Positions 39,743 to 41,600 of a DNA stretch of 64,000 nt are shown one piece after another. This DNA is from Bacteroidaceae bacterium (GTDB lineage Bacteria > Pseudomonadota > Alphaproteobacteria > RF32 > CAG-239), in contig CAVIDY010000006.1 in assembly GCA_963641885.1 (NCBI GenBank), forward strand, positions 5,574-69,573, read 5' to 3'. Within the stretch, counting starts at the first letter, position 1, and each line of letters opens with the position of its first letter. Under the pieces are notes generated by a model. It had not been told where the DNA came from. It saw only the letters and a program-made list of their open reading frames with translations, and did no database searches. Both the position numbers and the translations under genes were made by a program.

Positions 39743-40576
39743 TTACTTGTTTGAAACCGGAATGCTTATCATCGGCACGCTTCCGCCAAACATATACTGT
39801 GGAAGTTTACCATCCCATTGCTGCACGGCTTCATACTCGGTCAAACCTTTGTTTTTAGCCAAAGCAGCGGCTTTAATTTCCATAGCCTCTGCTTCAGCCT
39901 TGGCAGTTATAACCTGCTGATTAGCCTCTTCGGTAACACGGCGCGTGTTGTTAACTGCCTCTTGAGCTTTTTGCTCAGCGATAACCTTGTCTTCAATTGC
40001 CCCTTCGAACTTGTCAGAATAGTCAATGTCTATCAGTTGAAACGAAATGTTTTGGAAATAATTTCTTCCCAAATTTTCGTTTAACTTTTTGATAATTTCC
40101 AAACGAGCTTTGTCTCGATTGCTAACCAAATCTTGAGCTTGCCACTTACCGATAACGTCTTTAATCACGTCAGCCAGCACCGGAATAATTTTTTTCGCCT
40201 CATAGTCCATACCAGTGGTCTCATAAAGCTGATAAACATTATTCGGATTCAGATTATACGTAAACGTATATTTCAGACTCGCGGTCTGAACATCTGACGT
40301 GTAAGTAGACACAGAGTCGGTCATTTTTTGAGTACGCACGTCAATCGGAATCATCTTTGCCACAAAAGGAGCTTTAAAGCCAATTCCGTTAACATAACTC
40401 TGCGGCTCAACCTTGCCGAACATCACTTGAACACCGCGGTAGCCCGGATCTATCACATAAACCGAACTCCAAGCAAGAACCATTACAAACACGGCAACGA
40501 CGCAGATGATTGACCAGGTTGACCACTTTAACCAGCTTTTATTGCCGTTACTACTGTTTCCAAAATAATTACTCAT
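39743..40576 (-). CDS. Prohibitin-type SPFH/band-7 protein
   Basis: 277 aa with an N-terminal TM. VIDPGYRGVQVMFGKV..., and a C-terminal coiled coil AEQKAQEAVNNTRRVTEEANQ. Confidence 0.8.
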   Translation of the reverse strand: MSNYFGNSSNGNKSWLKWSTWSIICVVAVFVMVLAWSSVYVIDPGYRGVQVMFGKVEPQSYVNGIGFKAPFVAKMIPIDVRTQKMTDSVSTYTSDVQTASLKYTFTYNLNPNNVYQLYETTGMDYEAKKIIPVLADVIKDVIGKWQAQDLVSNRDKARLEIIKKLNENLGRNYFQNISFQLIDIDYSDKFEGAIEDKVIAEQKAQEAVNNTRRVTEEANQQVITAKAEAEAMEIKAAALAKNKGLTEYEAVQQWDGKLPQYMFGGSVPMISIPVSNK

Positions 40577-40708
40577 AATCTAAAAGTTTTTTGAAGTTAA
40601 TAATATTAAAAATTATAAAAAAGTGATGTTTTAGTACTCTTTTCACAGACAAAAGTCAAGAAAATTGCAAAAAAAAATATAAGTGTAATTTTTTTTATAA
40701 AAAAAGTG

Positions 40709-40737
40709 TTGCAAATAAAAACTTTATGCTTTATACA
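40709..40737 (+). promoter_or_regulatory. Putative promoter of tRNA-Lys
   Basis: TTGCAA-17 nt-TATACA, ending ~20 nt before the tRNA 5' end. Confidence 0.45.
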
Positions 40738-40756
40738 ATACATACATTGTTGATAT

Positions 40757-40833
40757 GCGTGCGTAGCTCAGTTGGCTAGAGCAACTGACTCTTAATCAGT
40801 GGGTCCAGGGTTCGAATCCCTGCGCGCGTACCA
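40757..40833 (+). tRNA. tRNA-Lys (anticodon CUU), CCA encoded
   Basis: Hand-folded cloverleaf: gcgtgcg-ta-gctc/agttggcta/gagc-a-actga/ctCTTaa/tcagt-gggtc-caggg/ttcgaat/ccctg-cgcgcgt-a-cca. The acceptor stem has two G-U pairs. Confidence 0.85.
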
Positions 40834-40842
40834 ATAACAAAG

Positions 40843-40866
40843 AAACTCCCTTTTGGGAGTTTTTTT
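40843..40866 (+). terminator. Rho-independent terminator of tRNA-Lys (copy 1)
   Basis: aaactccc-tttt-gggagttt stem-loop running into T7. Confidence 0.8.
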
Positions 40867-41015
40867 GTTATACGCGCAGTAAGGGAAAGAACCCTGGAAC
40901 GAAGGGTTCGACAAGGACGAGAGGCAGGCGGGAGCATGCCGGTGAGCGTCCGCGAACGAGGACGCAGCGGCGAAGTGAAACAAAGCCAATCCCTGCGCGC
41001 GTACCAATAACAAAG

Positions 41016-41039
41016 AAACTCCCTTTTGGGAGTTTTTTT
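41016..41039 (+). terminator. Identical terminator, repeat copy 2
   Basis: Same sequence as 40843-40866, shifted by 173 nt. Confidence 0.7.
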
Positions 41040-41188
41040 GTTATACGCGCAGTAAGGGAAAGAACCCTGGAACGAAGGGTTCGACAAGGACGAGAGGCAG
41101 GCGGGAGCATGCCGGTGAGCGTCCGCGAACGAGGACGCAGCGGCGAAGTGAAACAAAGCCAATCCCTGCGCGCGTACCAATAACAAAG

Positions 41189-41212
41189 AAACTCCCTTTT
41201 GGGAGTTTTTTT
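41189..41212 (+). terminator. Identical terminator, repeat copy 3
   Basis: Same sequence as 40843-40866, shifted by 346 nt. Confidence 0.7.
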
Positions 41213-41600
41213 GTTATACGCGCAGTAAGGGAAAGAACCCTGGAACGAAGGGTTCGACAAGGACGAGAGGCAGGCGGGAGCATGCCGGTGAGCGTCCGCG
41301 AACGAGGACGCAGCGGCGAAGTGAAACAAAGCCAATCCCTGTCAGCAACTTATAAAATACTACAAAAACACTACATAGAAGTCGCCGAAAACATAACCTC
41401 TATAATCGTTTAAGCTGCCAAATAAACACACTTATTCACAAGAACGAGCATGTTTATAGTTGATTTATTTTTGCTAAAACTATTTATCGTCTAGGCACAA
41501 AAACAATCTTCTGCTATGCTGAACATACATTTACACCGCCGCAGAACAACCTAAACAACTAATACATCTCCTTTATAGCAAACCAGCCGCTTCTTTTATT

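What the first reader, a model, noticed from the sequence alone, without database searches (positions are those of the whole stretch)
40818..41006. Each unit can fold two mutually exclusive ways: a ~30-bp super-hairpin over the terminator, or an acceptor-stem-closed, CCA-tailed module
To the right of the terminator loop lies an inverted, degenerate copy of the tRNA 3' end. The segment gggagtttttttgttatacgcgcagtaaggg (40855-40886) is the near reverse complement of ccctgcgcgcgtaccaataacaaagaaactccc (40818-40850). Read on the minus strand it gives tccagggttcTTTcccTTACtgcgcgta, compared with tccagggttcgaatccctgcgcgcgta in the tRNA. In pairing (a), tacgcgc (40871-77) pairs backwards with the tRNA acceptor 3' strand. 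This extends the terminator into a long hairpin that sequesters the tRNA 3' end. In pairing (b), the same tacgcgc pairs forwards with gcgcgta (40997-41003) of the next unit. That closes a 136-nt module with a 7-bp terminal stem and a free 3' CCA, which is a tRNA-like or minihelix-like end. Inside the module are clean hairpins: gaaccct-ggaacga-agggttc (40889-40909) and gcgtcc-gcgaacga-ggacgc (40946-40965). A GC-rich structured RNA with a tRNA-like terminus, repeated three times behind a tRNA promoter, could be a processed small RNA. It could equally be a decoy or substrate for RNase P, RNase Z, the CCA-adding enzyme or an aminoacyl-tRNA synthetase, or a recombination site.
Basis: partly seen in the sequence, partly recalled or inferred. 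Interest (0 to 1): 0.65.

Follow-up and report, generated by a model that had tools for sequence, protein, structure and literature searches.

The report
Structured cassette array behind tRNA-Lys
Behind a lysine tRNA gene lie three identical copies of a gene-less 173-base cassette, built from the tRNA's own T arm around a conserved folded core, and almost every genome of this gut alphaproteobacterial family carries such cassettes behind many tRNA genes, though nothing like them has been described.

Summary
Both proposed folds are predicted well below shuffled controls (z -4.2 and -7.1).

The unit is one member of a large family. A covariance model finds it in 142 of 151 genomes of the order (19 of 20 genera), with 1-18 copies per genome. 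Copies sit almost always directly 3' of a tRNA gene, and at least 17 anticodon types are used.

Each cassette contains:
- its own palindromic terminator
- an inverted copy of the local T arm
- a hairpin (H1)
- the local T-stem 5' strand plus TTCGA
- a core of 75-110 nt with two three-way junctions, well supported by covariation
- AAT plus the T-stem 3' strand, usually running on to CCA

The super-hairpin (pairing a) is family-wide. The 7-bp acceptor closure (pairing b) is not; it is peculiar to this tRNA's CGCGCG acceptor.

The 3 x 173-bp array is real. A sister genome also has three copies, homogenised separately, which indicates concerted evolution.

No reverse transcriptase, IS110 or IS200-type transposase is present in this genome, and Rfam gives no match. 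The function is unknown. I favour a read-through RNA that rewires the tRNA's 3' half, with a selfish folded-DNA cassette as the main rival.

The parts
40709..40739 (+). Promoter-like TTGCAA (40709-14) ... TACAAT (40734-39) in front of the tRNA
   Evidence: Read by eye. It is identical in sister genome G013. The consensus scan did not call it, because the spacer is 19 nt. This part is inferred.
40757..40833 (+). tRNA-Lys(CUU) with encoded CCA. T arm = caggg-TTCGAAT-ccctg.
   Evidence: ARAGORN. Rfam tRNA match at 69.5 bits.
40815..41341 (+). Array of three identical 173-bp units (40815-40987, 40988-41160, 41161-41333) plus a terminal aatccctg (41334-41341). Unit 1 overlaps the last 19 nt of the tRNA.
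   Evidence: TRF: period 173, 3.0 copies, 100% matches. G013 has the same array, with 5 fixed differences per unit.
40834..40871 (+). Terminator palindrome carried by the cassette: ataacaaagaaactccc-tttt-gggagtttttttgttat. It starts directly after CCA and is repeated at 41007-41044 and 41180-41217.
   Evidence: Sequence. In filled versus empty tRNA-Pro sites the native terminator lies after the second CCA, so this terminator comes with the cassette. The minus-strand reading was flagged as terminator-like.
40871..40898 (+). Inverted, degenerate copy of the tRNA 3' end (acceptor 3' strand plus T arm). Together with the terminator it forms the right arm of a quasi-palindrome of about 47 nt per arm.
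   Evidence: The same long quasi-palindrome is found across the 109 family copies tested.
40889..40909 (+). Hairpin H1: gaaccct-ggaacga-agggttc. The inverted T-stem 3' strand pairs with the direct T-stem 5' strand.
   Evidence: The match to the local tRNA is shown family-wide.
40903..40911 (+). Direct copy of the T-stem 5' strand plus the left part of the T loop (agggTTCGA). This is the 5' strand of helix P1.
   Evidence: P1 covariation at alignment columns 54-58 with 190-194.
40912..40987 (+). GC-rich core inserted in the split T loop. It contains hairpin H2 (40923-40940) and the subfamily hairpin gcgtcc/ggacgc (40946-40965).
   Evidence: Covariance model R1 scores 103.9 bits on each unit. 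Covariation is shown.
40988..41006 (+). Direct repeat of the tRNA 3' end from A58 to CCA (aatccctgcgcgcgtacca). It is the 3' strand of P1 and also the start of unit 2. The final copy at 41334-41341 is cut down to aatccctg.
   Evidence: The repeat is complete in 61 of 97 tRNA-linked family copies.

Best explanation
WHAT IT IS (shown)
The finding covers one unit of a recently homogenised three-copy array of a gene-less cassette. Members of this gut and rumen alphaproteobacterial family carry such cassettes directly behind tRNA genes. Record titles name the bacteria 'Candidatus Enterousia' and relatives.

A cassette lies between the tRNA's CCA and the tRNA's native terminator. In order it contains:
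- its own palindromic terminator
- an inverted copy of the local T arm
- a purine-rich turn
- the local T-stem 5' strand plus TTCGA
- a conserved core folding into two three-way junctions, with a GNNA-capped hairpin and tandem G.A pairs
- AAT plus the T-stem 3' strand, usually continuing through the acceptor strand to CCA

In effect the core sits inside a second copy of the tRNA's T arm, at loop positions 58/59.

HOW THE ARRAY AROSE (inferred)
Unequal recombination or slippage between the 19-nt copies of the tRNA 3' end that flank a unit duplicates or deletes units. This keeps them identical, which is concerted evolution.

HOW THE ARMS STAY MATCHED TO THE LOCAL tRNA (inferred)
The two nested quasi-palindromes are tRNA 3' half / terminator / inverted copy, and inverted copy / turn / direct copy. 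They can be corrected against the selected tRNA sequence by template switching during replication. Cores are exchanged between loci by gene conversion.

WHAT IT DOES (inferred, the weakest step)
The core acts as RNA on the + strand and is made when RNA polymerase reads through the cassette's terminator. The tRNA's 5' acceptor strand is then left to pair with the distal 3' end. The result is a rewired, tRNA-linked RNA that carries the core in its T loop.
For: Family and distribution:
- 10 model hits in this genome, covering 8 loci, 7 of them directly behind a tRNA gene.
- Hits in 24 of 24 same-genus genomes.
- Hits in 142 of 151 genomes and 19 of 20 genera of the order. None in 16 genomes of other families and none in the sister family, and the one sister-family genome again lacked it.
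- An exact 23-mer of the core occurs only in this clade among about 185,000 species.
- 108 of 156 copies directly follow a tRNA on the same strand. Arrays of 1, 2 and 3 units number 76, 10 and 4.

Boundaries:
- An empty tRNA-Pro site has the native terminator right after CCA. Filled sites have it after the second CCA.

Fold:
- 86.9% of cells are paired, against 28-48% for slid controls.
- 22 of 24 pairs have compensatory changes, and 0 of 500 shuffles reach the observed score.
- In 38 copies two Watson-Crick pairs are replaced by tandem G.A.

Arms are local and cores are not:
- Searches show the arms match the local tRNA.
- The core tree groups by host lineage, not by tRNA type.

Concerted evolution:
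- G013 also has three units, identical within the array, with 5 fixed differences from this window.
- One of these differences turns C-G into U.G on the + strand.
- The promoter and tRNA are 100% identical between the two genomes, while the downstream flank is strongly diverged.

Rewiring:
- In 45 of 47 loci the read-through MFE pairs the tRNA 3' half with the inverted copy and pairs the 5' acceptor strand with the distal 3' end.
- On average this is 14 kcal/mol better than the parts folded apart.
Against: - No transcript evidence could be obtained.
- A strong terminator precedes the core, and no promoter is visible inside the cassette.
- The G.U versus A.C strand test is only weakly in favour of the + strand, 84 against 71.
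- A third of copies lack the complete distal 3' end. This includes the last unit here and four single copies in this genome, so the rewired form cannot be needed at every locus.
- Individual copies decay. The tRNA-Met copy of G011 has a damaged H2. That fits selfish DNA as well as it fits a redundant RNA gene.
- The read-through MFE is partly a built-in consequence of the palindrome.
- Heterogeneous arrays and presence/absence polymorphism show real insertion events, for which I have no enzyme.
Confidence: 0.42

Rival explanations
1. Selfish, non-autonomous DNA cassette. The conserved fold is that of single-stranded DNA, as in integron attC sites, the CTX-phage attP hairpin or IS200/IS605 ends. 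An unidentified host-encoded enzyme recognises it and inserts the cassette at the T-loop region of tRNA genes. The inverted and direct T-arm copies serve to align the cassette with both strands of the target. Tandem arrays come from repeated insertion.
For: - Presence/absence polymorphism with clean empty sites.
- Heterogeneous arrays whose units have different terminators and cores.
- Cores cluster by host lineage, not by tRNA.
- Individual copies decay.
- R1-type copies in this genome sit only behind tRNAs with a TTCGAAT T loop: 7 of 13 against 0 of 26, p = 1.1e-4.
- The core contains GCGAAGC, which I recall as a very stable DNA mini-hairpin.
- The terminator carried by the cassette would spare the host tRNA.
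Against: - This genome has no RVT_1, IS110-type or Y1 (IS200/REP-associated) transposase.
- Its only tyrosine recombinases are two Xer-like genes and one 199-aa gene in an island.
- Copies that looked linked to integrases turned out to lie behind displaced tRNA fragments of ordinary islands.
- Known folded-DNA sites are simple hairpins. They are not double three-way junctions with a GNNA loop and tandem G.A pairs.
- No copy was found in viral contigs.
Confidence: 0.3
2. One reading: a 136-nt module closed by an acceptor-like stem with a free CCA. It would be a minihelix-type substrate or decoy for RNase P, the CCA-adding enzyme or a synthetase.
For: - In this unit the 7-bp stem and free CCA are the predicted MFE (z -4.2).
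- The T-loop pentanucleotide UUCGA sits on a T-stem copy throughout the family.
- 61 of 97 copies end in the full 3' strand with CCA.
Against: - The 5' partner of the acceptor stem is not conserved: 7/7 complementarity in 4 copies against 5.5 expected from other copies' arms (one search gives 5.4 against 5.4 for shuffled).
- Here the stem pairs the discriminator base and leans on the self-complementary CGCGCG.
- The module exists only between array units. The last unit and most single copies in this genome cannot form it.
Confidence: 0.1
3. Scars of integrated islands. The repeats would be leftover attL/attR duplications of the tRNA 3' end after loss of an integrative element.
For: - The direct repeat runs from the T loop to CCA, as at T-loop-type integration sites (known from integrase sublocation studies, from memory).
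- Islands with integrases do use these tRNA genes.
Against: - The 150 nt between the repeats is a conserved, covarying structure present in 142 of 151 genomes at at least 17 tRNA types.
- No integrase is adjacent here: the neighbours are an SPFH-type gene and tcdA.
- Independent decay of islands would not leave the same core each time.
Confidence: 0.06
4. Accidental palindrome and duplication product of replication errors at the terminator, with no function. The threefold array would be an assembly or slippage artefact.
For: Template switching at inverted repeats can create direct-inverted-direct triplications (from memory).
Against: - The same architecture with a conserved core occurs family-wide.
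- An independent assembly shows the same three-copy array.
- The element differs by about 3% between the two genomes, while the flank next to it is far more diverged.
Confidence: 0.03

Closest known systems
Direct repeats of tRNA 3' ends made by tyrosine-integrase islands (T-loop sublocation)
   Same: A duplicate of the tRNA gene from the T loop to CCA flanks inserted DNA. The tRNA stays intact, and the native terminator is displaced downstream.
   Different: The insert is only about 150 nt and has no genes and no integrase. It holds an inverted T-arm copy and a conserved covarying fold. The second T-arm copy is split by the core.
Folded single-strand recombination sites and miniature repeats (integron attC, CTX-phage attP, REP/BIME, IS200/IS605-derived palindromic elements)
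   Same: Short, gene-less and multicopy. Structure is conserved more than sequence. Tandem arrays occur.
   Different: Those are simple imperfect hairpins with a known cognate enzyme. Here there are two three-way junctions, arms matched to each tRNA, a strict position and orientation behind tRNA genes, and no cognate enzyme found.
Bacterial tRNA-like RNAs (tmRNA tRNA-like domain, YrlA/Y RNA, viral TLS)
   Same: A T-stem with a UUCGA T-loop motif is reused in a larger RNA, and a CCA end is often present.
   Different: There is no conserved closure of the acceptor stem. The element is physically tied to a cognate tRNA gene and copies that tRNA's own stem. Rfam gives no match.
Type II hammerhead ribozyme
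   Same: The order of elements around the inner three-way junction is the same: C-GAAA, hairpin, hairpin, AUGA-G, with tandem G.A pairs stacked on the open helix.
   Different: The CUG of the catalytic core is base-paired and variable. The position equivalent to the cleavage site is often G. No A15.1-U16.1 pair is present. No Rfam hammerhead hit, even at E <= 10.
Non-canonical archaeal tRNA introns in the T loop (positions 58/59 and 59/60)
   Same: Extra RNA is inserted at the same place in a T loop. Those introns have been proposed to be linked to mobile elements.
   Different: Those interrupt the functional tRNA gene and are removed by the splicing endonuclease, which bacteria lack. Here the functional tRNA is intact and the interrupted T arm is a downstream copy.

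Membership tests
Any Rfam 15 family | Covariance-model match at or near the gathering score | tested here: not met
   Only the tRNA itself passes (69.5 bits). All other hits in 40500-41600 lie far below their gathering scores.
Hammerhead ribozyme | Unpaired, conserved C3-U4-G5-A6-N7-G8-A9 strand | tested here: not met
   Only AUGA is conserved (columns 131-134). The three preceding positions are paired in H3 and covary.
Hammerhead ribozyme | GAAA strand with tandem sheared G.A pairs next to a G-C pair of stem II | tested here: met
   C74-G135 is flanked by G75.A134 and A76.G133 in 102 of 114 sequences.
Hammerhead ribozyme | Cleavage site N-U-H after stem III, with an A15.1-U16.1 pair | tested here: not met
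   H2 is followed by G97-G98-U99. The next base is G in 42 of 114 sequences. A78 faces G97.
tRNA-like minihelix (acceptor/T-arm mimic) | T stem carrying a T-loop motif | tested here: met
   P1 covaries with the local T stem, and UUCGA is nearly invariant.
tRNA-like minihelix (acceptor/T-arm mimic) | 3'-terminal acceptor strand ending in NCCA | tested here: inconclusive
   Complete in 61 of 97 copies. Absent from the last unit here and from four single copies in this genome.
tRNA-like minihelix (acceptor/T-arm mimic) | Acceptor stem closed by a 5' strand within the element | tested here: not met
   Met in this window's internal units but not in the family: 7/7 complementarity in 4 copies against 5.5 expected.
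Integrative island att scar | Direct repeat of the tRNA 3' end | tested here: met
   19-nt repeat from A58 to CCA.
Integrative island att scar | Integrase gene or island remnants between or beside the repeats | tested here: not met
   Only about 150 nt of conserved non-coding structure lies between the repeats. The neighbours are housekeeping genes. The genome holds two Xer-like recombinases plus one island recombinase elsewhere.
Non-autonomous transposon (MITE, REP, IS200/605 derivative, IS110 partner) | A cognate transposase in the genome | tested here: not met
   RVT_1, DEDD_Tnp_IS110 and Y1_Tnp are all absent from this genome and from most genomes of the genus. Other transposase families were not searched.
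Intrinsic terminator | GC-containing hairpin followed by a U run | tested here: met
   ctccc-tttt-gggag followed by T7. The scan tool calls the hairpin on the minus strand only, because the A and T tracts extend the stem on the + strand. Termination efficiency was not tested.

The most novel reading that the evidence does not exclude
Terminator read-through produces a second isoform of the cognate tRNA. The tRNA's normal 3' half is locked away in the super-hairpin, which takes the place of a giant variable arm. The tRNA's 5' acceptor strand, D arm and anticodon arm are then completed by the distal T-stem and acceptor copy ending in CCA, whose T loop carries the folded core of 75-110 nt. Such a molecule would keep the identity elements for aminoacylation but carry a handle. 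It would amount to a programmable family of tagged tRNAs, spread through a bacterial family by a cassette that rewrites its own arms to fit each tRNA.
Probability: 0.12. Interest if true: 0.95.

Novelty: categorically new. Interest (0 to 1): 0.72.

Why it matters
If the core is an RNA, it is a new and widespread structured RNA class. Its expression and shape are tied to tRNA genes in a way not seen before: a T-loop insertion in a duplicated T arm, combined with an antisense T arm that can capture the real tRNA's 3' half.

If it is DNA-level, it implies a recombination route, with no recognisable transposase, that targets the T-arm region of many different tRNA genes and adapts its arms to each.

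Either way it explains a recurrent and puzzling pattern in gut and rumen alphaproteobacterial genomes: tandem repeats and 'att-like' duplications behind tRNA genes, contig breaks in MAGs, and mis-binned contigs. The covariance model also gives a concrete object that can be tested in metatranscriptomes and in vitro.

Tried and rejected
- **Rfam scan at E <= 10.** Nothing but the tRNA.
- **Hammerhead reading of the inner junction.** The topology and the GAAA/AUGA strands fit, but the catalytic CUG and the cleavage site do not.
- **Reverse-transcriptase route.** RVT_1 is absent here and in 25 of 31 genomes of the genus.
- **IS110 bridge-RNA idea.** The DEDD transposase is absent here and in 27 of 31 genomes.
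- **IS200/REP-type Y1 transposase.** Absent here. The one case next to a cassette (G011) is an IS200-like insertion behind the native terminator.
- **Link to small (about 200 aa) tyrosine recombinases.** 4 of 15 such loci have a cassette nearby. In the two read in detail, the cassette lies behind a displaced tRNA 3' fragment, so it marks the far end of an ordinary island.
- **Phage origin.** No match in viral contigs.
- **Synteny-based search for empty tRNA-Lys(CUU) sites via tcdA.** Only G013 shares the neighbourhood.
- **Strand assignment by G.U versus A.C counts.** Inconclusive, 84 against 71.
- **Crude 5-mer tests of arm complementarity.** Too weak, so replaced by 7-8-mer tests with arms from other copies as control.
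- **Literature search for tRNA-linked structured RNAs.** It returned only unrelated tRNA mimics.

Full report
**Observation**

The window holds tRNA-Lys(CUU) at 40757-40833. From base 40815, inside the T loop, a 173-bp unit is repeated 3.0 times at 100% identity up to 41341.

The 136-nt module 40871-41006 is predicted to fold with a 7-bp terminal stem and a free CCA. Its energy is -56.6 kcal/mol, z = -4.2 against 200 shuffles. The tRNA plus one unit folds at -118.1 kcal/mol (z = -7.1). In that fold the tRNA's T arm and acceptor 3' strand are paired to the inverted copy across the terminator.

**It is one member of a family**

The unit recurs in this 1.47-Mb genome behind tRNA-Ser(GGA) and tRNA-Met(CAU) at 78% and 72% identity. 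A profile search adds copies behind tRNA-Pro(CGG), Lys(UUU), Ser(UGA) and Gly(GCC), plus one orphan copy.

Every copy has the same plan:
- The tRNA's CCA.
- A palindromic terminator (ATAACAAAAAAAG-stem-CTTTTTTTGTTAT).
- An inverted, degenerate copy of that tRNA's own 3' end.
- A purine-rich turn.
- That tRNA's T-stem 5' strand plus TTCGA.
- A GC-rich core.
- AAT plus that tRNA's T-stem 3' strand, often continuing to CCA.

A covariance model (R1) finds the core as follows:
- In 24 of 24 genomes of the genus and in none of 16 genomes from other families.
- In 142 of 151 genomes and 19 of 20 genera of the order, all within one family.

An exact 23-mer of the core occurs only in gut and rumen alphaproteobacterial MAGs, among one genome for each of about 185,000 species. 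Several of these MAGs are titled 'Candidatus Enterousia', and a few contigs are evidently mis-binned. No match occurs in viral contigs.

In 125 fetched loci, 108 of 156 copies directly follow a tRNA gene on the same strand, with 17 anticodon types represented. Arrays of one, two and three units number 76, 10 and 4.

Copies without a tRNA lie behind displaced tRNA 3' fragments left by ordinary integrated islands.

**Boundaries**

For tRNA-Pro(UGG), one genome has the native terminator straight after CCA. Others have the cassette, a second copy of the tRNA 3' end, and then that same native terminator. So the cassette brings its own terminator and sits between the tRNA and the tRNA's original terminator. 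Equivalently, it entered at the T loop and carried a replacement 3' end.

The repeat starts at position 58 of the T loop whatever the loop sequence is. It reads AAT, or AGT behind a TTCGAGT loop.

**Fold of the core**

On 114 distinct sequences the following helices are supported:
- **P1**, the T-stem copy, closing everything.
- **P3 and P2**, which stack inward. P2 is extended by tandem sheared G.A pairs.
- **H2**, closed by a GNNA loop with an internal G.A.
- **H3**, highly variable in sequence.
- **H4**, a small GCGAAGC hairpin.

Overall 86.9% of cells pair, against 28-48% when partners are slid by 1-3 columns. 22 of 24 pairs show changes on both sides, and none of 500 shuffles reaches the observed scores. 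In 38 sequences two Watson-Crick pairs of H3 are replaced by tandem G.A/A.G.

The inner junction has the strand order of a type II hammerhead (C-GAAA, hairpin, hairpin, AUGA-G). It lacks the catalytic CUG and a usable cleavage site, and Rfam gives nothing.

That hairpin has a compensated counterpart, gcggca/tgccgc, in the tRNA-Met copy.

The long quasi-palindrome runs from the tRNA 3' half through the terminator to the inverted copy. It is found throughout the family, about 50 nt per arm, and the T-arm part is the best kept.

Hairpin H1 is specific to its locus. It is perfect over 8/8 positions in 41 of 112 copies, against 11.6 expected with arms from other copies.

The acceptor-like closure is not general. 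Perfect 7/7 complementarity occurs in 4 copies against 5.5 expected, and the mean score equals that of shuffled sequence. It works in this unit because the acceptor strand is CGCGCG.

What is general is a different rewiring. In 45 of 47 loci with a complete distal 3' end, the minimum-energy fold of the read-through transcript does two things. It pairs the tRNA's 3' half with the inverted copy, and it pairs the tRNA's 5' acceptor strand with the distal 3' end. On average this is 14 kcal/mol better than the tRNA and trailer folded apart. This is a prediction, and it follows partly from the palindrome by construction.

**Dynamics**

The sister genome G013 (98% identical TcdA) has the same locus with three units of 173 bp. 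The units are identical to each other but differ from this window's units at the same five positions in every unit. The promoter and tRNA are 100% identical between the genomes, and the downstream flank is strongly diverged.

This is concerted evolution of a real array. One of the five changes converts a C-G pair to U.G on the + strand.

Cores do not group by tRNA type but by host lineage. In contrast, the arms of orthologous copies are conserved between species. So cores are exchanged between loci, and the arms stay local.

Some arrays are heterogeneous, with different terminators and cores in successive units. This points to repeated insertion as well as duplication.

The distal repeat is complete in 61 of 97 copies. 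In this window and in G013 the last one is decaying, to 8 and 11 nt.

**Search for machinery**

- This genome has no RVT_1, IS110-type or Y1 transposase.
- Its three tyrosine recombinases are two Xer-like genes and a 199-aa gene in an AT-rich islet on another contig.
- R1-type cassettes in this genome sit only behind tRNAs with a TTCGAAT loop: 7 of 13 against 0 of 26, Fisher p = 1.1e-4.
- Other core families serve other loops, for example behind tRNA-Gly(CCC) with TTCGATT.

**Interpretation**

- **Shown:** the cassette family, its anatomy, its covarying fold, its distribution, and the reality and homogenisation of the array.
- **Inferred:** arrays grow and shrink by unequal exchange between the 19-nt repeats.
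- **Inferred:** arms are kept matched to the tRNA by template-switch correction of the two nested quasi-palindromes. This mechanism is known from E. coli mutagenesis work (cited from memory), and selection on the tRNA would set its direction.
- **Inferred, weakest:** the function. The richness of the fold (two junctions, a GNNA loop, tandem G.A substitutions) fits RNA better than a DNA recombination site. The fixed orientation behind a strong promoter also fits a read-through product.
- **Counter-points:** a terminator stands in the way, no transcript data could be had, and the strand test is weak.

I therefore give the RNA model 0.42 and a selfish folded-DNA cassette 0.30.

I saw that locus myself.

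Noticed in passing
G000 contig C2:97400-100661 (locus L173, 3400-6662): An AT-rich islet lies after trpS. It holds a 199-aa tyrosine recombinase, a pair of small genes of 182 and 136 aa that looks to me like a toxin-antitoxin pair (my reading of the translations, not searched), two small membrane proteins and an orphan cassette. The cassette's end (aatctcgttg) matches the 3' end of tRNA-Pro(UGG) on contig C4. This is probably an island integrated in that tRNA, with the two contigs adjacent.
   Followed up: partly
G000 contig C17:1-260: The contig starts inside about 1.3 tandem units (period 200 bp) of a third core family. It lies behind a tRNA-like 3' end (...ctctccggccctacca) that is not in the assembly. 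Arrays of this kind seem to break MAG assemblies.
   Followed up: partly
G000 contig C2:31900-32540 (minus strand): tRNA-Gly(CCC), with T loop TTCGATT, carries one full and one partial cassette of a different core family. The second unit has a nearly perfect inverted copy of the tRNA 3' end, including TGG (the complement of CCA).
   Followed up: partly
window 40757-40833: The acceptor stem of tRNA-Lys(CUU) has G1.U72 and U4.G69 wobble pairs. The 3' strand belongs to the repeated unit. tRNA-Lys(UUU) on C10 has a C50-A64 mismatch in its T stem. Both could be traces of a replaced 3' end.
   Followed up: no
L192 (G011 contig C11:32300-34035), 1100-1560: An IS200-like Y1 transposase gene is inserted just behind the native terminator of the tRNA-Met cassette locus. 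It appears unrelated to the cassette.
   Followed up: partly
L055, L065, L082, L108: Contigs carrying typical cassettes are filed in public records under Ruminococcus gnavus, Clostridia and Bacteroidaceae bins. This is probably mis-binning of alphaproteobacterial contigs.
   Followed up: no
L068 and L073 (initiator tRNA-Met loci): The two genomes carry the two T-stem alleles (aatgg/ccatt and gttgg/ccaac) in swapped positions between the tRNA and the distal repeat. It looks as if the 3' ends had been exchanged by recombination or by integration at the T loop.
   Followed up: no
window 40889-40919, 41062-41092, 41235-41265 (minus strand): Read on the minus strand, hairpin H1 followed by TTTCCCTT is called terminator-like. 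The main terminator is also bidirectional.
   Followed up: no
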